Below, one piece after another: positions 37,589 through 61,612 of a DNA stretch of 64,000 nt. The stretch covers positions 56,241 to 120,240 of IMG/VR virus record IMGVR_UViG_3300009008_000010, one strand, 5' to 3'. A model generated the notes under the pieces. That model had not been told where the DNA came from and made no database searches. It saw only the letters and a program-made list of their open reading frames with translations. The translations under genes and the position numbers were made by a program. The DNA comes from a virus. Numbering within the stretch: the first letter of the stretch is position 1; each line of letters begins with the position of its first letter.

Positions 37589-37674
37589 GACGACGTGGCC
37601 GAGTGGCTGAAGGCAACAGTCTGCAAAACTGTCGAGCGTATTGCTCCGCGTGGGTTCAAATCCCACCGTCGTCT
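37589..37674 (+). tRNA. tRNA-Cys(GCA) with long variable arm
   Basis: ACAGT-CTGCAAA-ACTGT; U73. Confidence 0.85.
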
Positions 37675-37695
37675 CTGATGTTTGATAATTTAAAT

Positions 37696-37770: not shown

Positions 37771-37859
37771 GTGTACGAGGCAGATACGGTTTGCTGCGCC
37801 TGGTTGTGGCCCAGGAGGTCGATACAAAGACCATGCGGGTTCGAGTCCCGTCGTACACC
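37771..37859 (+). tRNA. tRNA-His(GTG) with long variable arm
   Basis: CCTGG-TTGTGGC-CCAGG; C73; no encoded G-1. Confidence 0.85.
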
Positions 37860-37868
37860 CTTTAATAT

Positions 37869-39398: not shown

Positions 39399-39486
39399 TG
39401 TAGGGTACGCTAACGGTAAGCGGACTGCCTGTTAAGCAGTTGTATTCCCTTAAATGGGTATGGAGGTTCAAATCCTCTCCCTACAG
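39399..39486 (+). tRNA. tRNA-Asn(GTT) with long variable arm
   Basis: ACTGC-CTGTTAA-GCAGT. Confidence 0.85.
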
Positions 39487-39545
39487 CTTGAAAAAATACT
39501 TCCAATACACTATATAACAGTATAAGTTATTTAAGTGTTGGAGGT

Positions 39546-40269: not shown

Positions 40270-40352
40270 GGGGTCGTCGCATAATGGTGATTGCACCGGA
40301 CTTTTAATCCGGCTCCGAAAGGACATTGCAGGTTCGAGTCCTGTCGGCCCCA
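40270..40352 (+). tRNA. tRNA-Lys(TTT) with long variable arm
   Basis: CCGGA-CTTTTAA-TCCGG; TCC-GAAA-GGA variable arm. Confidence 0.85.
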
Positions 40353-40363
40353 CTATGCTATGC

Positions 40364-42542: not shown

Positions 42543-42612
42543 CGGGGTGTAGCTCAGATGTTAGAGCGTGCGAAAATATGCAAGGTCGTTGGTTCAAGTC
42601 CAATCACCCCGA
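42543..42612 (+). ncRNA. tRNA-Pro-like body with shortened anticodon arm (pseudo-tRNA)
   Basis: CGGGGTG/CACCCCG-A acceptor; 14-nt TGCGAAAATATGCA arm instead of 17 nt. Confidence 0.7.
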
Positions 42613-44200: not shown

Positions 44201-46001
44201 ACGTTGATAAAAAAGAATTAGAAAAAATCAACAGGAGAATGGTTGGTTGGACTGTTGATCGTGTGGATAGCGGTCACGATGAAAACATATATATCATTCA
44301 CCTGTCTAAGGGAAAAAACAAGCGAAGCATTACGCTTTGTGGAAACGATCTTGGTGGATGGATGGGGCGATGACATATAAAATTCTCGTAATTGAAAGTG
44401 GTGTTGATTGTTGTGAGTGTAGCGGCGAATGTTACTGTGAACCAGAAATCAACACGCATGAGTTGTGTTTAACCGATCTTGCAAGATCAACAAATTACGA
44501 ATTAAAAGAGGCGGCTAACTCTTTGGTGGTTCAAGCGTTACAGGGCAGCGATGAAACATTGAGGGAACGCCTTCGCCAATTGGGATGGGTGAATTTAAAA
44601 GAAATCAAGGATAGGGAAGAAAAGCTGGCTGCTGGAAAACAGTTTTGGATGTATCAGGGAAACAGAATTGCCGACAATCGTTATGGTTGCTCTTTGAGTC
44701 CAGTTGATCTAGAGAATCTGAGTGTTCCTACGGTGCGAATGTTGGCCCGTGAGGATACGCATATTGTCCAAACTATCACCAAACCATCTTTAAAGAAGCT
44801 GTTTAACGCAGAGCAGAAGAAGGTTTATGATCAGGTGGCTAAGCAGGAGAAGAAAGAGAAAGAGAAAAAGGCTGCTGCTGCTAAGACAAAATTGGAGAAG
44901 AAAAAGCAGAGAGAAATTGCAAAGGCTAAGAAGATCCTAGCAGAAGCGGGAGAGACAAATGACAAGCCCTGAAGAAACTGAAAAAATACAGGCTTTGTTG
45001 AAACAAATAGGCGAACGAGCCAGACAAGAGGCGTGGGATGCTGGTGTCCCAACTTGCAGGATGAAAGATGGGGATATAGTCTGGGACTATCCAGACGGCA
45101 AGACTTACGGACACATACCACTTTTAATGTGTGATGACAGGGCTTTGTATCGAATATACTCTAGGAATTTAAGTTTCGGTGTGTTCAGCAAAGCGTCACG
45201 GGGGTTTGTTGGAATACGAGAGAAGTTCGGAGACTTATATTTATTCACCGAATTTCACTGGGATACTGGCCCGCCATTTGGAACGGTTCATCCCAAAGAA
45301 AAATTAGAAATGTTGCCAGAGGAGATGAGCCTTCTGGAAAGTTTGGGCACGGTTGGTGAAAAAAGCCGTCGTCCGATGGAGTTTTCCCAAGACTGGCGAT
45401 ACAAAGACACGAGTGAGTCTTGTAATGAGGCGCAGGGATGGAATGACAAGGATGGCGCAGTGGGAGAAGAAAGCGGAAGGCCACTTATAGCGGGTGAAAA
45501 TAAAGGATGGTATTACCTAGATACTAAGCAGCCCAAAACTGAAGAGGAATGGGCTGTGGGCGTCCCTAATGACGCATTGTTTAAGTGGCTAGAAGAAAAA
45601 GGGGAACAGTATAGGAGCAATGAATAGGAATTGGTTGTTAATTCTAATTATGTCTCTGGCGATTATAGGTTTTGTGATTTTTAACTCACAGACAAAGCCG
45701 GTGACGGAATTTGCTCCATTTTCAAGCGTTCCTCCTGAAGAACCAATTCCACCGGAAGATGAAAGGGTTATTCAAAGGATTGAAGAAATAAAGAGAGAGT
45801 TAAATAATGAACTCACTCTTTTAAAAGTTAGAGTGGATACGATTGCCACTCGCCAAGAAGGGGTTGGTGATATTGGGACTAGAGTAAGTAGGTTGGAGAC
45901 TAGGCTACGAAGTTTCGAGTATGAAGTTCAACGAATGGAACGAGATTTCGATAGACGAATCCGCCGATTGGAAATGGAGATCAGAGTAGAAGAATAAAAT
46001 T

Positions 46002-46075
46002 CGGGGCGTAGCTCAGCCTGGAAGAGCGTCGGCTTTGGGAGCCGAAAGTCGCACGTTCAAATCGTGTCGCCCCGA
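46002..46075 (+). tRNA. tRNA-Pro(TGG)
   Basis: TCGGC-TTTGGGA-GCCGA. Confidence 0.92.
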
Positions 46076-46112
46076 CTCAACTTTGGTTGAATTTGTGTTA
46101 TAATAGGTGTGA

Positions 46113-46184
46113 TGGCTTGTGGTGTAATTGGCAACACGTCTGTCTCTGGAACAGATATTCTAGGTTCAAGTCCTAGCAGGCCAG
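46113..46184 (+). tRNA. tRNA-Gln(CTG)
   Basis: TCTGT-CTCTGGA-ACAGA; TGTTATAAT just upstream. Confidence 0.92.
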
Positions 46185-46189
46185 CTTAT

Positions 46190-46263
46190 AGCAGGATGGT
46201 TACTGGTTTTACCCGCTGGGCTTCATACGTCCAGTTATGTCGGTTCGATTCCGACTCCTGCCA
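46190..46263 (+). tRNA. atypical tRNA-Met(CAT) with initiator-like A1xC72
   Basis: CTGGGC-TTCATAC-GTCCAG; weak D arm. Confidence 0.7.
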
Positions 46264-46265
46264 CT

Positions 46266-46436
46266 TCACTGTTGCCTAGCTTGCTAGGGTGTAGGGCCAC
46301 GTCCCAATACAAGGGGTTGGCGAATGCTTCGTAAGACGTTGGTTAGCCCTTCGGGGTGAAACAAGCCCACAGAATCCGTGTGGAGGCCGACGCATTTTAG
46401 GCTAAACTACCTGTGAGAATTTGGGATCAACAGTGA
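46266..46436 (+). ncRNA. unassigned structured RNA (about 170 nt)
   Basis: TCACTGTTG/CAACAGTGA terminal stem, internal UUCG hairpin, sits within the tRNA run. Confidence 0.55.
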
Positions 46437-46575
46437 TTTAATATGCCGCTTGAGGGAAAAACGTTGTGCGGCGGTAGGTTATTGCCGAAGTTATGGGTAA
46501 AGTCCAGCAAATTACTGGTGATCCCAGAAAGATAGGTGTAGCCAATACCCGCCGTGGACCCGATGGCGGCTCCAT

Positions 46576-46648
46576 GCTACCGAAGCCGAATGGTTAGGCG
46601 CGTTCTTGGTAAGAACGAGGAAGATGGGTTCGATTCCCTCCGGTAGCT
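46576..46648 (+). tRNA. tRNA-Thr(GGT)
   Basis: CGTTC-TTGGTAA-GAACG. Confidence 0.88.
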
Positions 46649-46650
46649 CT

Positions 46651-47454
46651 ATGAATGTGGCGTTAGTGGCAACGTGTCATCCTCGTGTAGAGATAGATTT
46701 CATTGCGGAATGGTTGAAACACTATGCCGCAATAGGTGTCGATTTAATTGATCTTTATATTGATCCTGCCTATACGAACAGTCCGTATAGAAGTCAGAAG
46801 CCTCAGTATAATTATTATGATGAATTGACAGACGAGGATGCGGTTGATAAATTCCAAGAAAGTGTGGCATCTTCAGGTGTTCGGTGTAACGTTAAAACAG
46901 GCGTTGCTGATGGTGGTTGGGGTTTACGTCAAGCCCAAAATATCGTGAGAACTCTTGACGGCGATGCTTTCCGTTGCGATTACTTGCTTCATTTGGATGT
47001 AGATGAATTTTTAATTCTGAAAGGGACTGGCAATTCATCCATTCAAGATAAATTGAACGAGTTGATCGAAGTGTATGGGGAAAACCACTTTGGATTTTAT
47101 CAAAATGTAATGGCTCCCCGGTGGAGCGAAAAATCCGTTTGGGATATTCGTTTGACAAAAGGGTGTATGCAGCATTCTTGGAAGTCTGCCGTTAATATTT
47201 CTCAGATAGGGAATCAATTAGACGAGGGAGGCGACCAAGAACGGGCATACAAAGCGATACACGGGAGAGTAGAACCACATATTGAAGTTCCATCCTGTCA
47301 TGCAAACGTTTTTCATTTTTCAGGATGGGACGAGGGTTCACGTCGCCAAGATGTTTTGGATAGATGGAATCCTTATGTAGTTTTTGAGACCACAGAACAC
47401 ATAGTTTATCGTGATTTTCTGTTGTTCTTAGCCTACGGAGGGGATAGTGATTAG
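46651..47454 (+). CDS. glycosyltransferase (GT2/GT92-like)
   Basis: FIAEWLKHY..IGVD..LYID; YLLHLDVDEFL. Confidence 0.8.
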   Translation: MNVALVATCHPRVEIDFIAEWLKHYAAIGVDLIDLYIDPAYTNSPYRSQKPQYNYYDELTDEDAVDKFQESVASSGVRCNVKTGVADGGWGLRQAQNIVRTLDGDAFRCDYLLHLDVDEFLILKGTGNSSIQDKLNELIEVYGENHFGFYQNVMAPRWSEKSVWDIRLTKGCMQHSWKSAVNISQIGNQLDEGGDQERAYKAIHGRVEPHIEVPSCHANVFHFSGWDEGSRRQDVLDRWNPYVVFETTEHIVYRDFLLFLAYGGDSD

Positions 47455-48309: not shown

Positions 48310-49242
48310 ATGGTAAGTAGGCAAGAGAGGTTTACCAGAGTTTATCGTGATAACGCTTGGGGAAGTGGCCCAACACTATCTGAAGTAGATCATGTTAGAC
48401 AAGTTCTGCCTGAGATTTTAGTGAAGCGGAAAGTGCGGTCTATGCTTGACATACCGTGCGGAGATTTTCACTGGATGAAAACTGTGGAGCTTGGGGATGT
48501 TCAATACATAGGCGCAGATATTGTGCCGGAAATGATCGAAAGGAACAAATTAGATTATCCAACAATAGACTTTCGGTGTCTGGATTTGACTTCAGATGAA
48601 TTGCCAGAAGTTGATTTGGTGTTTTGCCGGGATTGTCTTGTTCATTTTTCATTAGAGGATTGTCACAAGGCATTAACGAATATCAAGCGGAGCGCCAAGT
48701 ATGTGATGATGACCACGTTCCCAGAACATCGCGGAAACAAGGATAAAGAAACCGGAAAAAGTTGGACAACCAGAAACTTAGCAGATCCCCCTTTTAATTT
48801 TCCTAAACCTCTGCAAGTCATCAACGAAAAAAATAAAAGACCCAAGTATACGGATAAGAGTCTTGCGGTATGGTCAACAGAATTCATCCCAGATATGGTA
48901 AGTAAGAACAGACGAAAACGCCTCATTAAATTATGGACAGAAGACCCTCATTGTTATTACTGTAAACGTAAAACGGTGATTGTCCTGATGGCTCCTGAAG
49001 AACGGATGCCTCGCAGATTTTCAAATTACCCTTTACGGGCGACATTGGAACACTTGCGAAGTAGATTAAATCCGTCTCGGCAGGAGCCTATTTCCAATGG
49101 TAATGAACAACGAATTGTTCTGGCTTGCAACGAATGCAATCAAGCACAGAACACAAAAGAGATGGATGGGTTGACTCGTGAAGAATTGTGGGAGCGATCT
49201 AAAAAAGGACACGATAATCCTCGAAATAAAAACGGAGAGTAG
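48310..49242 (+). CDS. class I SAM methyltransferase fused to an HNH domain
   Basis: LDIPCGDFHWM, DLVFCRDCLVH; C-terminal CYYC...ATLEHL...VLACNECN. Confidence 0.8.
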   Translation: MVSRQERFTRVYRDNAWGSGPTLSEVDHVRQVLPEILVKRKVRSMLDIPCGDFHWMKTVELGDVQYIGADIVPEMIERNKLDYPTIDFRCLDLTSDELPEVDLVFCRDCLVHFSLEDCHKALTNIKRSAKYVMMTTFPEHRGNKDKETGKSWTTRNLADPPFNFPKPLQVINEKNKRPKYTDKSLAVWSTEFIPDMVSKNRRKRLIKLWTEDPHCYYCKRKTVIVLMAPEERMPRRFSNYPLRATLEHLRSRLNPSRQEPISNGNEQRIVLACNECNQAQNTKEMDGLTREELWERSKKGHDNPRNKNGE

Positions 49243-57197: not shown

Positions 57198-58466
57198 CTG
57201 AAAGGAGCTTCACATGTTTGATTGGTGGAAAAAGCCGGTTCGTAGTTCCAAGGAAGGCGAGCGATTGACTGATTGGGAGTGTAAAAAGATCGCCAAGACC
57301 TTAAAATGCCCCGATTGCGGTGGAGCATTAAAAAAAGGTCCAGAAGGCGGTTGTTCAGTAAACGTGTGTTGCATACAATGTTTTAGTGAATTTAATATCA
57401 CTATATGGGATGGCTCTTGTATGGGCGAACGGATTAGCGATGTAGGCCCAAGGGATGTGGGGGATAGAGCATGGGCGTATCAGTTAAAACAAAAGGTGTA
57501 AATGATGCTTCTTCTCTCAGCTATAGAGAGAAGTTAATCCGTGAATATAATGAATATGGAGCGGAACTAGATTGTTTGTGGCGTGCGGCTCGGTTTGGTG
57601 ATAGGTGCGAAAATTGCGATCAGCCCTTGGGGACCATGAGCGGTGCTGTGGAATCAGAGAGGATAGAGTGGCTGCTGGATCGCCTCTATAATATTGTGTT
57701 GGATTTGGAGACTTTAAATGGAATCGAAAGTGATAGCGGGCCTTCGGGCGATACATAATCGTTATTTTCGCCCAGTGATTGCTAATCAAAATGGGCTTTT
57801 AGTCCATCATGGCGATTGTGACATACATCGTGCTAAAGAAATGCATAGCTTCGCAGCTTGCACATGTGGGTTGCTACATGATTTGCGATGGCTGGAATGG
57901 TCCTTGGTAGAGAAGATGTATCCCAAATTTGGAGATGAATTAGTTCACTCCGATATGACTTGGGAGATGGAGCAAGAAGCAAAAGGACGAGAGCCTATTT
58001 CGCATGAAGAAACTCTGAAGATATTTAAGGAGGCGGGCTTTAAAATCAATGATGATCCGCCTACGGAAGAAGAATTAAAAAAAATAGAGGCGAGAGATAA
58101 AGAACATTGGGAATCAATAGAATATGTGTTCGGTAAGGAATATGTGGAATATTTAAACCAACAGAATGATGCCAGTAGCGAGCATGATTGTTCCCATGAT
58201 AACTCTGAATAGGAAATAATGTTCGCCACAAAAATGGTGTGAGTCAGGCATTGGAATTTTCTCCTTTTAAAAGCATGATAATGACAGCAGCAATCATACC
58301 TAGTGTTGATAGCAGTTCATATATCATTTCCATGCTTTATAAATCCTTACCATACACTAGATTATATTAAAAGGGTGTTATGATTTGGTTAAAATTAGGT
58401 TAAGGTGTTGTGTCCTAAATTAAATTATTGAGTTGATTTTCTTCTGTAGCTTTGCTATATAAGGCT

Positions 58467-59024
58467 ATGGAAGTAAAACAACAATTGTTAGATTATGCCA
58501 GTCGTGGTTTAAGTCGTTCAGAGATTGCCAAGGCTTTAGGAAGGAGTAGAAGTTGGGTCAACAAGTGGATGGCTCAATACGGGATAAAAACTCATGCTAA
58601 GCCCGGCGCTAAGCCCGGCAAAAAAGGTAAAATTAAGAATAATAGTTGTGAAGTGTGTGGTGGAACGATAAAAAGGAATGCTTCCAAATATTGTAGCTCT
58701 AGTTGTTGTGCAAAGGCTAAATGGGAAAAGACGAAAAGAAAGATTCAAAAGACAGGAAAGATAGATAATTCTAAACAAGGCAGAAAGTATTTTATTGAGG
58801 CGCAAGGATGTGTTTGTTCAATTTGTGGTTGCGAGGAATGGAATAGGTTGCCAATTCCTTTGGTGTTAGATCATATTAATGGTAATGCTGATGATTGGCG
58901 ATTGCAAAATCTAAGAATGGTTTGTCATAATTGCGATGCTCAATTGCCAACTTACAAAAACAAAAACAGAGGGAATGGGAGGCACACCCGACGACAACGA
59001 TATAGTGAAGGAAAAAGTTATTAA
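58467..59024 (+). CDS. HNH homing endonuclease with N-terminal HTH
   Basis: LVLDHINGNADDWRLQNLRMVCHNCDAQLPTY. Confidence 0.9.
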   Translation: MEVKQQLLDYASRGLSRSEIAKALGRSRSWVNKWMAQYGIKTHAKPGAKPGKKGKIKNNSCEVCGGTIKRNASKYCSSSCCAKAKWEKTKRKIQKTGKIDNSKQGRKYFIEAQGCVCSICGCEEWNRLPIPLVLDHINGNADDWRLQNLRMVCHNCDAQLPTYKNKNRGNGRHTRRQRYSEGKSY

Positions 59025-59025
59025 C

Positions 59026-59098
59026 GCCACTGTAGCTCAATTGGCAGAGCGGCACACCTGTAATGTGCATGTTAGGGGTTCAATTCCTCTCAGTGGCT
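59026..59098 (+). tRNA. tRNA-Thr(TGT), C33
   Basis: GCACA-CCTGTAA-TGTGC. Confidence 0.88.
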
Positions 59099-59141
59099 CT
59101 AAGGTAGTTGGGGGCAAGTTCCACTTGTCTTCTTTGCCTTT

Positions 59142-59187
59142 CACCCCGCACCGGGTCAGGTCTTAACCGAAGCAGCCCAGCGGGGTG
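59142..59187 (+). ncRNA. minimal SRP RNA (4.5S domain IV/helix 8)-like hairpin
   Basis: GGGTCAGGTC...GAAGCAGCCC inside CACCCCGC/GCGGGGTG. Confidence 0.72.
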
Positions 59188-60204
59188 TTTTTATTTAAGG
59201 ACACAGAAATGGACGAAGAACAACTTAAAATATGTCAATTTTCTACAGGGTGTAGATACCTTGGCGTGCGTGATGATGACACTTACGAATGTCTCAAGAA
59301 CGATGCTAATAAGCGTAAAACAATTGACGAAGAGGTGTATGCTATTATTCCCAGTTTAATTAAAAAGCCGAACGCTCTCCTGTTAGACATGTTGCCTTTG
59401 GGAGATTTTTGTAAAGGGATTTAAAGTGGTCTCAGAAAAAATCAAACAATTAGCTGCTAGTTATTGCAACCGAGTGATGGATAATAAATCGGATGAATTA
59501 ACAAGAGGGGTTGAATCTTTTGGAAAACCCAGCCTTCGTAGTAGTTGTGAGTATTGTTATCCAACCTACGGCGATGCTGAGGATTTATTTCGAGCTTGTG
59601 AGCTTTATGAGAGGTCGAGGAATGGAAGCCTATAAAATCTTTGACTTGGGTGCAGATGGCCCCAAAACGTTATTTCACGGTCTTGAAGGTAGCAGAACGC
59701 TACCAGTGGGAAAGTGGCTAGATGCTGAAATTAAATTAGTCACAGATGGATCTAGAGCGGAGCCTTATGAAAGTGGTTTCCATGCCTACTATACTTTGGA
59801 CGATATTCACGAATGGTTGCTGAGGGCCAAGAACCTCGATCATCGAGTCGTTGTCAAGGTAGAAGTGAAAGGTTGCTGGGAGAAACCACGGGCTATTCGT
59901 CCCACAATTCTGGCTAAACGCCTCAAAATCTCTGATCGAAATTGGAAAAACAGAATTCCTGCGAGAGAGTTCCTAAATACAGTAACTCTCACGGAGGCTT
60001 AGGAATGTTTAATTTAGTAGCTTGTTCGGTATTTATGATTGTAGCTATTGCGCACTTGGTAAGGGCAATCTGTGGGTGGGATTTATTAATTGGTAGAGCA
60101 CCAGGACATACTTTCAAAAAAGAAGGATTTTACTGGATGATGCCGAGATGGGTCTCATGGTTTGCCGCACTTGCCATTGGGGCGTTAGCAGTATGGGGAC
60201 TTTT

Positions 60205-61156: not shown

Positions 61157-61612
61157 TTGCTTTTCGTAGAACCACCAAGAAAAAAGAGAGCTAGAAAGTC
61201 TAACAAAAGAATTAAATTGTTAGAACAAGATCCCTCGTGTCATTTCTGTACATCAGAAGTTAATTTTGAAAATTCTGGAATTTTCAGACTTAAAGGAGTT
61301 GGCGGAAAACCGAGGGAAAAGGTTTTAGCTTGTCTTGAATGTATTTACAAACATCGTCGTGAGGAATCAGGGGGTCGCTCCACTAAACGCAGGCAAAAAC
61401 TGCTGGAGAAAGACCCTCATTGTTTTTATTGCAACTGTGATTTGGATTTAGACAATTCGACATTGGATCACCTTATTCCGAGAGCCAGCAAAGGACCGAA
61501 CAAGGTTGAGAATATCGTTTTATCGTGTTACACCTGCAACCATAGAAAAGGCACAAAATCTGCCACTGAGTATTTGGCTATTTTAAATGCTGAAAAGAGA
61601 AGAATTGCATGA
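61157..61612 (+). CDS. HNH endonuclease (duplicated domain)
   Basis: CFYC...STLDHLIPRASKG.N...NIVLSCYTCNHRKG. Confidence 0.85.
   Translation: MLFVEPPRKKRARKSNKRIKLLEQDPSCHFCTSEVNFENSGIFRLKGVGGKPREKVLACLECIYKHRREESGGRSTKRRQKLLEKDPHCFYCNCDLDLDNSTLDHLIPRASKGPNKVENIVLSCYTCNHRKGTKSATEYLAILNAEKRRIA

What the first reader, a model, noticed from the sequence alone, without database searches (positions are those of the whole stretch)
59142..59187. Phage-encoded minimal SRP-RNA domain IV lacking the GNRA tetraloop
Seen: GGGUCAGGUC-UUAACC-GAAGCAGCCC in a 46-nt hairpin with an asymmetric bulge, 44 nt after tRNA-Thr. Established: CAGG/AGCA is the Ffh M-domain-binding symmetric loop of 4.5S RNA, and the GGAA tetraloop recruits FtsY. 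Here the loop is replaced and the distal helix is absent. Inference: an Ffh-binding decoy that could uncouple host membrane-protein targeting, or a divergent viral SRP RNA.
Basis: partly seen in the sequence, partly recalled or inferred. Interest (0 to 1): 0.72.

Follow-up and report, generated by a model that had tools for sequence, protein, structure and literature searches.

The report
Phage-encoded minimal SRP RNA hairpin
A fragment of a very large marine phage carries, just after a tRNA gene, a 46-base hairpin that copies the protein-binding tip of bacterial signal recognition particle RNA, loop included, so the phage may tap into its host's machinery for delivering membrane proteins.

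Summary
The hairpin at 59142-59187 is real and is not a chance match. It is an 8-bp G+C-rich basal helix, an ACC/A asymmetric loop, the CAGG/AGCA symmetric loop of SRP RNA helix 8, and a UAAC apex, followed by TTTTTATTT. Rfam's small-SRP model finds it below threshold (23.1 bits, cut-off 40).

The "missing GNRA" apex is a natural URRC-type tetraloop. The same 24-mer sits at the tip of full-length SRP RNAs in 21 species genomes, 14 of them Planctomycetota. A 29-nt run is identical to three Planctomycetaceae SRP RNAs. Four full-length SRP RNAs with this apex (three of those Planctomycetaceae genomes and one metagenome contig) also score below Rfam's cut-off.

The element belongs to a recurrent class. 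Eleven other distinct short helix-8 hairpins occur in viral contigs, nine of them wedged between tRNA genes, with covarying stems. In a diverged relative from another study the hairpin is unchanged, while the next 55 nt carry 8 substitutions and indels at 4 places.

Best reading: a phage-encoded minimal SRP RNA that binds host Ffh and also serves as the terminator of its tRNA unit. It lacks the distal GTPase-activating site. No expression or binding data exist. Ten literature searches found no report of a phage-encoded SRP RNA.

The parts
58452..59024 (+). Upstream ORF (190 aa): helix-turn-helix plus a weak HNH_3 match, homing-endonuclease-like. It ends 1 nt before the tRNA.
   Evidence: HTH_23 E 8e-08; HNH_3 21 bits, below its cut-off of 24.8
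59026..59099 (+). tRNA-Thr (anticodon UGU), the last of 31 tRNA genes in the window
   Evidence: ARAGORN; Rfam tRNA 63.4 bits
59101..59140 (+). Hairpin A: a spacer hairpin filling the gap between the tRNA and the SRP-like hairpin. Its inner stem 59110-59132 was flagged terminator-like by the simple scan.
   Evidence: fold; scan. An analogous hairpin directly 5' of the SRP-like hairpin is seen in L004, L005, L006, L022, L024, L029 and L053. No differences at 59111-59141 in the X4 relative.
59142..59187 (+). Minimal SRP RNA (helix 8 / domain IV only), 46 nt
59142..59149 (+). Basal helix, 5' strand (pairs with 59180-59187; 8 bp, 7 of them G-C)
   Evidence: Its sequence is unrelated to helix 5 of cellular SRP RNAs with the same apex.
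59150..59152 (+). Asymmetric loop, 5' side (ACC). The 3' side is the single A at 59179.
   Evidence: ACC lies inside the 29-nt run identical to Planctomycetaceae SRP RNAs.
59153..59178 (+). Helix-8 core. GGGU (59153-59156) pairs with GCCC (59175-59178). Symmetric loop CAGG (59157-59160) / AGCA (59171-59174). Apical stem UC(U) 59161-59163 / (C)GA 59168-59170. UAAC tetraloop 59164-59167.
59180..59187 (+). Basal helix, 3' strand
59188..59196 (+). U-tract (TTTTTATTT). Together with the basal helix it looks like an intrinsic terminator.
   Evidence: The T5 run is kept in the X4 relative, whose first difference is at 59193.
59209..59424 (+). Downstream ORF (71 aa, ATG at 59209, no Pfam match), the start of the next unit

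Best explanation
The element is a phage-encoded minimal SRP RNA. It is a 46-nt copy of SRP RNA helix 8, with both Ffh-binding internal loops and the host-lineage type of apical tetraloop (UAAC, URRC class), closed by its own short G+C-rich helix. It is transcribed with tRNA-Thr at the end of a tRNA array. Its basal helix plus U-tract stops transcription, as the terminal helix plus U-run does in several cellular SRP RNA genes seen here. The released hairpin binds the M domain of the host's Ffh; no Ffh was found in the phage record. Because the apex is the natural one, the RNA can probably still support early docking of FtsY. Because helix 5 and its distal site are absent, it cannot provide the distal GTPase-activation step. 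The phage thus supplies an Ffh-loading RNA that either keeps Ffh charged or re-tunes the SRP cycle during a long infection. I rate 'keeps or redirects SRP for the phage' somewhat above 'poisons it'. Shown: sequence, fold, homology to SRP RNA, class membership, conservation. Inferred: transcription, processing, Ffh binding and the effect on targeting.
For: (1) Homology. The motif occurs once in the window against 0.02 expected. Rfam RF00169 aligns across it. The exact 24-mer is the tip of full-length SRP RNAs in 21 of 21 species-genome hits: 14 Planctomycetota, 6 Mollicutes-type and 1 alphaproteobacterial MAG. A 29-nt run (59150-59178) is identical to L215, L221 and L226, including the ACC of the asymmetric loop.
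(2) The apex is natural. URRC is a widespread alternative to GNRA (PMC4091067), and 75 of 80 metagenome hits with a non-G loop start have URRC or URRU.
(3) It is not a raw gene fragment. The basal helix is unrelated to cellular helix 5, yet forms 8 perfect pairs.
(4) It belongs to a class. Of 67 viral-contig hits to a GNRA version of the motif, 13 loci (11 distinct sequences) are short hairpins. Nine of the distinct sequences sit in tRNA arrays, eight with a tRNA called 5-17 nt from the motif, which leaves no room for a full SRP RNA; for L006 the downstream tRNA is read by eye at the cut locus end. Eleven of 12 short hairpins, the window's included, have a 5-12-bp basal helix of unrelated sequence. 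The apical 3-bp stem covaries: 97.8% of cells are paired, 23 cells change on both sides, and 0 of 500 shuffles reach this. Two class members reach Rfam's cut-off (L006 41.9, L004 41.4 bits).
(5) It is conserved. A contig from a different study (X4) covers 59101-59277 with 8 substitutions and indels at 4 places (5 gaps), all at 59193-59247, and none at 59111-59192. The tRNA/HNH segment upstream and the ORFs downstream are replaced in that contig.
(6) No Ffh M domain in the own record or in 10 other carrier records, so a host partner is implied.
(7) The roles of the loops, tetraloop and distal site are taken from PMC4091067 and PMC5454536.
Against: There is no direct evidence of transcription, of a stable processed 46-nt RNA or of Ffh binding. 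The Rfam score of 23.1 bits is below the cut-off of 40. The free MFE pairs GGU with ACC around a CUUA loop (-22.5 kcal/mol) instead of the SRP-like register (-22.3), although cellular SRP RNAs with the same apex share this ambiguity. This is the only URRC-type short hairpin found: a URRY scan of viral contigs gave 55 loci, all in coding sequence. No close kin were found in IMG/VR or GenBank phages, and the nearest huge phage (LR756511.1, 48% DnaE identity) has no RF00169 match. Conservation rests on single low-depth contigs (depth 4.34 and 2.78), and the places of the 5 differences in X5 were not listed. A strong stem plus U-tract is also what a plain terminator needs. Class members were found with patterns that fix GGTCAGG and AGCAGCC, so those invariant bases are not independent evidence. 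Three of 12 short hairpins (L010, L073, L056) lack the asymmetric loop.
Confidence: 0.6

Rival explanations
1. It is only an intrinsic terminator for the HNH / tRNA-Thr unit. The SRP-like interior is a relic of a captured ffs piece and no longer has an RNA function of its own.
For: An 8-bp G+C-rich stem is directly followed by TTTTTATTT on the strand that carries all local genes. Among the 12 short hairpins this is the only one with a strong U-tract directly after its basal helix. Its Rfam score is the lowest of the class.
Against: A terminator needs only the stem and the U-tract. Yet the 30-nt interior is identical over 29 nt to living cellular SRP RNAs and is unchanged in the X4 relative, while the adjacent 55 nt carry 8 substitutions and indels at 4 places. 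The simple terminator scan did not call it, because the 'loop' is 30 nt. Sister elements in other phages have no U-tract and sit between tRNAs. Several cellular SRP RNA genes seen here also end in their own helix plus a U-run (L216, L017 group, L108), so terminator and SRP RNA are not alternatives.
Confidence: 0.2
2. One reading: a dominant-negative Ffh decoy that cannot recruit FtsY because the GNRA tetraloop has been lost.
For: The loop is indeed not GNRA. The tetraloop mediates early FtsY contact (PMC4091067; PMC5454536). The distal site is absent.
Against: The same apex, closing U.C mismatch included, is used by full-length cellular SRP RNAs in 21 species genomes. URRC loops are described as a widespread natural alternative. 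So loss of FtsY contact cannot be inferred from the loop. All 11 other short phage hairpins keep a GNRA loop, though 9 of them were retrieved only by the scan that fixed GNRA; the 3 found by a loop-free pattern (L004, L005, L010) have GAAA. This argues that the class is selected to keep the receptor-contact end.
Confidence: 0.1
3. It is an attachment-site (attP) or recombination remnant of a phage that integrates into the host ffs gene.
For: Integration into ffs exists: phiEf11 (PMC12540744; search listing and start of abstract only). Thirty-two of 67 viral-contig hits are one Firmicutes-type ffs, several at position 67 or 2 of their locus.
Against: Identity to cellular SRP RNA stops after 29 nt on both sides and does not run on to the 3' end of ffs. 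The piece is a symmetric hairpin with a new closing helix. No tyrosine or serine recombinase was found in the 120-kb record, which is only a 24%-complete fragment. The element lies inside a tRNA array with phage genes on both sides.
Confidence: 0.03
4. It is a chance resemblance.
For: The Rfam score is below threshold.
Against: Expected 0.02 per window. Exact 24-mer identity to 21 cellular SRP RNAs. Class and conservation evidence.
Confidence: 0.01

Closest known systems
Bacterial small SRP RNA (4.5S type; Rfam RF00169 Bacteria_small_SRP), in particular the URRC-apex SRP RNAs of Planctomycetaceae
   Same: Helix 8 has the symmetric loop (CAGG / AGCA), the asymmetric loop (ACC / A) and the UAAC apex. 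A 29-nt run is identical to L215, L221 and L226. A terminal helix followed by a U-run also occurs in several cellular genes.
   Different: It is 46 nt instead of about 97 nt. It has no helix 5 and no distal GTPase-activating site. The closing helix has unrelated sequence. It is encoded by a phage, 42 nt after a tRNA gene. It scores 23.1 bits against a cut-off of 40.
Short helix-8 hairpins in tRNA arrays of other large-phage contigs (found here: L004, L005/L013, L006, L010, L029, L051/L073, L053, L056, L065; also L022 and L024 without a nearby tRNA)
   Same: Same architecture and size (30-53 nt), same placement beside tRNA genes, and an upstream spacer hairpin in 7 of 11. The carriers are mostly fragments that CheckV rates 6-31% complete at 7-158 kb (L024's record 67%, L010's 96%). 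The own record shares weak protein matches with L005, L022, L024, L051/L073 and L065.
   Different: All others have a GNRA loop (GAAA in 9, GAGA in 1, GGAA in 1) and no strong U-tract directly after the helix. The window's has UAAC and doubles as a terminator.
tRNA and tmRNA complements of huge phages (Al-Shayeb et al. 2020, PMC7162821)
   Same: A translation-related stable RNA carried by a very large phage next to many tRNA genes.
   Different: The main text of that paper has no occurrence of 'SRP', 'signal recognition' or '4.5S' (term search). Its supplements could not be seen.
Phage attachment site inside ffs (phiEf11, PMC12540744)
   Same: A phage genome holds a piece of the SRP RNA gene.
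   Different: There it is a 27-nt att core beside an integrase (start of abstract). Here it is a self-contained hairpin with no integrase found in the record.
Small stable non-tRNA RNAs in the phage T4 tRNA gene cluster (recalled, from no call)
   Same: Non-tRNA RNAs co-transcribed and processed with phage tRNAs.
   Different: No SRP motif is known to me in them. Not tested here.

Membership tests
Bacterial small SRP RNA (RF00169) | Helix-8 symmetric loop with the conserved 5' ...GGUCAGG... and 3' ...AGCAGCC... strands | tested here: met
   Exact at 59154-59177. Aligned to the model core with high posterior.
Bacterial small SRP RNA (RF00169) | Asymmetric internal loop below it (A/C-rich 5' strand, short 3' strand) | tested here: met
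   ACC (59150-59152) opposite A (59179). ACC is shared with L215, L221 and L226.
Bacterial small SRP RNA (RF00169) | Apical tetraloop, GNRA or the natural alternative URRC | tested here: met
   UAAC is URRC. PMC4091067 passages. The same apex occurs in 21 cellular SRP RNAs.
Bacterial small SRP RNA (RF00169) | Long helix 5 reaching the 5'/3' distal site that activates the Ffh-FtsY GTPases | tested here: not met
   The hairpin ends after an 8-bp closing helix. The U-tract starts at 59188 and hairpin A ends at 59140. The role of the distal site is from PMC5454536.
Bacterial small SRP RNA (RF00169) | Rfam gathering score (40 bits) | tested here: not met
   23.1 bits. Caveat: 4 of 4 full-length SRP RNAs with this apex (3 Planctomycetaceae genomes, 1 metagenome contig) also fall below it, at 30.0-39.5 bits.
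Bacterial small SRP RNA (RF00169) | Binds the Ffh (SRP54) M domain | not testable with these tools
   No RNA-protein tool is available. No Ffh was found in the phage record.
Phage tRNA-array mini-SRP hairpins (class proposed here) | Helix-8 core closed by a basal helix of at most about 12 bp, 30-53 nt in all | tested here: met
   46 nt with 8 basal pairs. Eleven of 12 members have 5-12 basal pairs.
Phage tRNA-array mini-SRP hairpins (class proposed here) | Lies in or at the edge of a tRNA gene array of a phage contig, same strand | tested here: met
   42 nt after tRNA-Thr, the last of 31 + strand tRNAs. Others lie 5-17 nt from a tRNA.
Phage tRNA-array mini-SRP hairpins (class proposed here) | GNRA apex | tested here: not met
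   The window has UAAC. All 11 other distinct members have GNRA, but 9 of them were found only with a pattern that required GNRA; 3 came from a loop-free pattern.
Intrinsic (Rho-independent) terminator | G+C-rich stem immediately followed by a U-tract on the transcribed strand | tested here: met
   8 bp (7 G-C), then TTTTTATTT.
Intrinsic (Rho-independent) terminator | Compact hairpin with a loop of 3-8 nt | tested here: not met
   The basal stem encloses 30 structured nt, and the consensus scan did not report it.
attP of an ffs-integrating phage | Contiguous identity with host ffs across the crossover, with an integrase nearby | tested here: not met
   Identity is limited to 29 nt and the flanks are unrelated. 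PF00589 and PF00239 were not found in the 120-kb record, which is only a fragment.

The most novel reading that the evidence does not exclude
Very large phages carry a family of helix-8-only SRP RNAs, embedded in their tRNA operons and matched to the apical-loop type of their host lineage (GNRA or, here, URRC). These capture host Ffh and reprogram co-translational membrane-protein targeting during infection. That would be the first viral component of the SRP pathway, and a natural experiment in how little SRP RNA is enough.
Probability: 0.45. Interest if true: 0.85.

Novelty: new variant of a known kind. Interest (0 to 1): 0.7.

Why it matters
SRP RNA is universal in cells. In ten full-text searches I found no report of a virus encoding any part of it. 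A phage-made Ffh-binding RNA would add membrane-protein targeting to the list of host translation functions that huge phages touch, alongside tRNAs, tmRNA and translation factors.

The natural truncation keeps the Ffh-binding loops and the receptor-contact tetraloop but drops the distal GTPase-activating site. It therefore separates the two known jobs of SRP RNA, and gives a ready-made 46-nt construct for binding, GTPase and complementation assays.

The exact match of the apex to Planctomycetaceae SRP RNAs also offers a possible new host-prediction marker for uncultured phages.

Practically, it shows that Rfam's cut-off misses both URRC-apex cellular SRP RNAs (4 of 4 tested here) and these phage miniatures.

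Tried and rejected
Close kin of the phage:
- Megablast and blastn of the locus against 50,697 GenBank phage records gave nothing, or only a 56-nt tRNA match.
- The search for related loci with the downstream ORF found no relative. With the DnaE-like polymerase it found one 35%-identical 10.7-kb contig.
- A 20-mer of hairpin A found 0 viral contigs.
- The nearest record by tblastn, LR756511.1 (48% identity), has no RF00169 match.
- 55-61-nt queries of three mini-SRPs against GenBank phages gave only 18-23-nt coding-sequence hits at E 4-5.
- The L010 record's tRNA region matched only tRNAs of cultured phages.

Other URRC-type phage elements:
- The URRY pattern gave 55 viral loci, all in coding sequence.
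- The pattern CCGGGTCAGG-N9-13-AGCAGCCC added 8 loci: 6 coding-like, and 2 copies of a longer-stem SRP RNA.

Expression: no RNA holder was listed for the stretch.

Host assignment by protein similarity: the window's epimerase matched 4 of 5 genomes tested, with no discrimination. The DnaE query found nothing in 5 fragmentary carrier records. In a sample of 301 Planctomycetota genomes, 205 have the helix-8 motif, with mixed GNRA and URRC/URRU apexes. The exact apex appeared only in G007 among the 150 matches listed. The host call therefore stays a hypothesis.

My 'outermost pair span' measure for telling short from full-length SRP RNAs was confounded by long-range MFE pairs and was dropped. I used tRNA distances and inspection instead, so the class counts are by eye.

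The protein-like tblastn hit next to the L022/L024 hairpins is a real shared gene, not a second SRP element in the own record.

Three papers on minimal 4.5S RNA and the distal site were not held. My statement that a domain-IV-only 4.5S RNA can support E. coli growth is therefore recalled and unverified.
Full report
WHAT IS THERE

The window is the last 64 kb of a 120,240-nt IMG/VR virus record. CheckV rates the record 24% complete, which implies a genome of several hundred kb. G+C is 42%. The record encodes a UvsX-like recombinase and a helicase. It also encodes a DnaE-like polymerase whose nearest GenBank relative is the 595-kb uncultured phage LR756511.1, at 48% identity. The window holds 31 tRNA genes, all on the + strand.

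The last tRNA, tRNA-Thr(UGU), lies at 59026-59099, one base after an HTH/HNH-like ORF. After it come:
- a spacer hairpin at 59101-59140;
- the 46-nt hairpin of the finding at 59142-59187;
- TTTTTATTT at 59188-59196;
- the next ORF, starting at 59209.

The 46-nt hairpin is made of:
- an 8-bp basal helix (7 G-C pairs);
- an asymmetric loop, ACC opposite a single A;
- the helix GGGU/GCCC;
- a symmetric loop, CAGG/AGCA;
- two pairs plus a U.C mismatch;
- the loop UAAC.

The SRP-like register (-22.3 kcal/mol) and the free MFE (-22.5 kcal/mol, which pairs GGU with ACC) are isoenergetic.

IS IT MORE THAN CHANCE?

Yes.
- GGTCAGG-N10-AGCAGCC occurs once in the window at up to 1 mismatch, against 0.02 expected.
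- Rfam's bacterial small SRP model aligns end to end at 23.1 bits, with E = 0.012 locally and 0.0011 in the whole record. It is the only match in the record.
- That is below the gathering score of 40, so the default scan reports nothing but tRNAs.

THE APEX IS NATURAL, NOT 'REPLACED'

In the 80 loci returned the apexes were URRC in 43, URRU in 32 and other in 5. By eye, almost all lie in long SRP-RNA-type hairpins. One (L166) has the window's 26-mer exactly. None of the 80 lies in a tRNA array.

A scan of one genome per prokaryotic species with the exact 24-mer found 21 genomes, all with full-length SRP RNA hairpins around it:
- 14 Planctomycetota;
- 6 Mollicutes-type (Haloplasmataceae, Acholeplasmataceae, Mycoplasma corogypsi);
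- 1 alphaproteobacterial MAG.

The four genomes that also share the outer G-C pair are all Planctomycetaceae. In three of them (L215, L221, L226) the identical run is 29 nt (59150-59178) and includes the ACC of the asymmetric loop.

PMC4091067 (passages read) states three things. [quoted passage not shown] URRC is 'another widespread alternative loop'. The two internal loops bind the 54-kDa protein, while the apical loop contacts FtsY.

So the observation 'no GNRA' is right, but the inference 'cannot recruit FtsY, hence decoy' does not follow.

Rfam's cut-off is a poor judge here. Four of four full-length SRP RNAs with this apex (three of the Planctomycetaceae genomes, L215, L221 and L226, plus the metagenome contig L166) score 30.0-39.5 bits. 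The three other cellular examples tested score 44.5-47.4 bits.

IT IS A DELIBERATE MINIATURE, AND ONE OF A CLASS

Outside the 29 shared bases the window's closing helix has no likeness to helix 5 of those cellular RNAs, yet it pairs perfectly. This is not what a random gene fragment looks like.

Three pattern scans of 2.9 million viral contigs show that it is not alone.

Among 67 loci matching GGTCAGG-NNN-GNRA-NNN-AGCAGCC, I sorted by eye:
- 32 copies of one Firmicutes-type ffs, many at the very edge of proviral contigs. This is the att-site situation described for phiEf11 (PMC12540744; listing and abstract start only).
- 16 full-length-looking SRP RNAs.
- 6 coding-sequence hits.
- 13 short hairpins, 11 distinct sequences.

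Nine of the distinct short hairpins sit in tRNA arrays. Eight have a tRNA called within 5-17 nt of the motif (L004, L005/L013, L010, L029, L051/L073, L053, L056, L065), which leaves no room for the roughly 35 nt per side that a full SRP RNA needs. For L006 the downstream tRNA is read by eye at the cut end of the locus. L022 and L024 have no tRNA nearby and are followed by a separate terminator.

Most carriers are fragments that CheckV rates 6-31% complete at 7-158 kb; two are more complete, L024's record at 67% and L010's 203-kb record at 96%. Two records are flagged as proviruses by IMG/VR. The own record shares weak protein matches (30-57% identity) with five of them.

Structure support that does not depend on the search patterns:
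- The apical 3-bp stem covaries. On 13 sequences 97.8% of cells are paired, 23 cells change on both sides, 0 of 500 shuffles reach this, and slid controls reach at most 50.5% paired.
- Eleven of 12 short hairpins have a basal helix of 5-12 pairs, each of different sequence.
- Two members reach Rfam's cut-off (41.9 and 41.4 bits). Others score 38.2, 33.7, 33.6 and 29.8.
- Seven of the 11 others also have a spacer hairpin directly 5' of the SRP-like hairpin, as the window does.

Against uniformity, three members lack the asymmetric loop. All others have GNRA loops, though 9 of the 11 distinct members were found only with a pattern that demanded GNRA. The window's is the only URRC type found, since the URRY scan of viral contigs gave 55 loci, all coding.

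No close kin are in IMG/VR or GenBank. However, public runs from two other studies hold related contigs.

Run X4 (sediment, another study). One 1,760-nt contig matches 59101-59277.
- All listed differences lie at 59193-59247: 8 substitutions and indels at 4 places (5 gaps).
- There are none at 59111-59192.
- Four further substitutions are unlisted and, by the tool's listing rule, lie within about 10 nt of the piece ends.
- The same contig replaces 58899-59100 (the tRNA-Thr and the end of the HNH ORF) with 167 other letters, and 59278-59617 with 145 other letters.

By my arithmetic, if 13 events fell at random among the 157 interior positions, the chance that none hits the 82 positions 59111-59192 is about 7e-5. 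This is rough, because the events are clustered.

Run X5 (a third study). A 176-nt contig covers 59069-59192 with 5 differences whose places were not listed.

Both contigs are single and of low depth (4.34 and 2.78). X2 is from the source study and is not independent.

A 699-nt contig in run X3 matches only 59148-59179, with 1 difference, and has a cellular-SRP-like 5' flank. So a cellular SRP RNA with nearly this apex lives in the same habitat.

HOW IT MOST LIKELY WORKS

Shown: the sequence and fold, homology to SRP RNA helix 8, placement at the 3' end of a tRNA unit, a stem plus U-tract, class membership, and conservation.

Inferred:
- The hairpin is transcribed with tRNA-Thr. Two promoter-like sites lie at 58848-58877 and 58902-58931, but such sites are no more frequent here than in shuffles.
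- Transcription stops at the U-tract.
- tRNA processing frees hairpin A plus the mini-SRP.
- The RNA binds host Ffh through the two internal loops.

No Ffh M domain is encoded in the own record or in 10 other carrier records. All but two of those are fragments rated under a third complete. No SRP54-type GTPase domain was found in the own record.

[quoted passage not shown] A helix-8-only RNA keeps the first function and lacks the second.

I therefore expect an Ffh-RNA particle that recognises cargo and docks, but turns over differently. It would either keep host Ffh loaded for the phage's own membrane proteins during a long infection, or throttle host targeting. I recall, but could not verify, that a domain-IV-only 4.5S RNA can support growth of E. 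coli. That tips me slightly toward 'supplement' (papers not held).

The terminator role is compatible with this, since several cellular SRP RNA genes seen here also end in their own terminal helix plus a U-run.

RIVALS

- Terminator only (0.2). It explains the stem and U-tract, but not the identity and conservation of the 30-nt interior.
- FtsY-blind decoy (0.1). Its premise is removed.
- attP remnant (0.03). Identity stops after 29 nt, and no integrase was found in the record, though the record is a fragment.
- Chance (0.01).

HOST

The exact apex points to Planctomycetaceae: 4 of 4 species genomes with the 26-mer, and 14 of 21 with the 24-mer. The samples are marine and sediment. But the apex also occurs in Mollicutes-type genomes. 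Within a sample of 301 Planctomycetota genomes it is rare and apex types are mixed. A protein-similarity check did not discriminate. I hold the host call at about even odds.

KNOWN OR NEW?

Ten full-text searches found no paper on a phage- or virus-encoded SRP RNA. The six exact phrases occur in 0 papers. The library covers open-access papers only.

I file the element as a new variant of a known kind. It is homologous to SRP RNA and works, I think, through the same Ffh-binding surface. It fails two membership criteria of the bacterial small SRP RNA family, helix 5 with its distal site and the Rfam score. It occurs in a new genomic setting.

VERDICT

- Observation: confirmed.
- Interpretation: partly supported (right family, wrong reasoning about the loop).
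- Interest: 0.7.
- Confidence in the best explanation: 0.6.
- Confidence that the element is an SRP RNA helix-8 homologue maintained by selection: about 0.85.

Noticed in passing
window 59101-59140; also L004, L005, L006, L022, L024, L029, L053 directly 5' of their SRP-like hairpins: A second hairpin ('hairpin A', often with a UUCG or GCAA loop and no shared sequence) fills the space between the upstream tRNA and the mini-SRP in 8 of 12 loci. It is unchanged at 59111-59141 in the X4 relative. It may be a processing or insulating element, or part of one two-hairpin RNA.
   Followed up: partly
L017-L071 (32 loci), e.g. position 67 or 2 of L018, L019, L030, L035, L036, L039, L060: One Firmicutes-type full-length ffs recurs at the very edge of many proviral contigs, as expected if these prophages integrate in or beside ffs (compare phiEf11, PMC12540744).
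   Followed up: no
L037:681-704 and L070:2757-2780: An A+T-rich, apparently full-length small SRP RNA with its own U-tract lies about 100 nt after four tRNA genes in two viral contigs (16 kb and 3.7 kb). It is either host DNA or a phage with a complete SRP RNA.
   Followed up: no
own record outside the window: L083:13453-14844 and L084:4431-7292 (G000:C1:33453-34844 and 44431-47292): The DnaE-like polymerase is in two ORFs about 9.6 kb apart. In LR756511.1 the matching parts are adjacent (L086:3-584 and 501-2804). This suggests a split gene or a large insertion.
   Followed up: no
window 37589-37675, 37771-37860, 39399-39487, 40270-40353; 42543-42612: Four tRNA calls are unusually long (84-90 nt: Cys, His, Asn, Lys), which could mean introns or extra arms. 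Rfam finds one more tRNA at 42543-42612 that ARAGORN does not list.
   Followed up: no
window 48310-49242, 58452-59024, 61157-61612: HNH-type endonuclease ORFs are scattered through the tRNA region. The one before tRNA-Thr, together with the tRNA, is replaced by other sequence in the X4 relative, so these cassettes look mobile.
   Followed up: partly
run X3, contig matching window 59148-59179 only: A 699-nt contig at depth 9.5 carries a cellular-type SRP RNA with the same apex but for one base, in the same study as the phage. It is a candidate host or host relative.
   Followed up: no
L004:2748-2873: A weak tmRNA-model match (17.1 bits, E 0.007, far below the cut-off of 47) lies about 150 nt upstream of the mini-SRP hairpin of that 158-kb contig.
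   Followed up: no
L215, L221, L226, L166: Full-length SRP RNAs with a URRC apex (three Planctomycetaceae genomes, one metagenome contig) score 30.0-39.5 bits, below Rfam's RF00169 gathering score of 40. Standard annotation will therefore miss them.
   Followed up: yes
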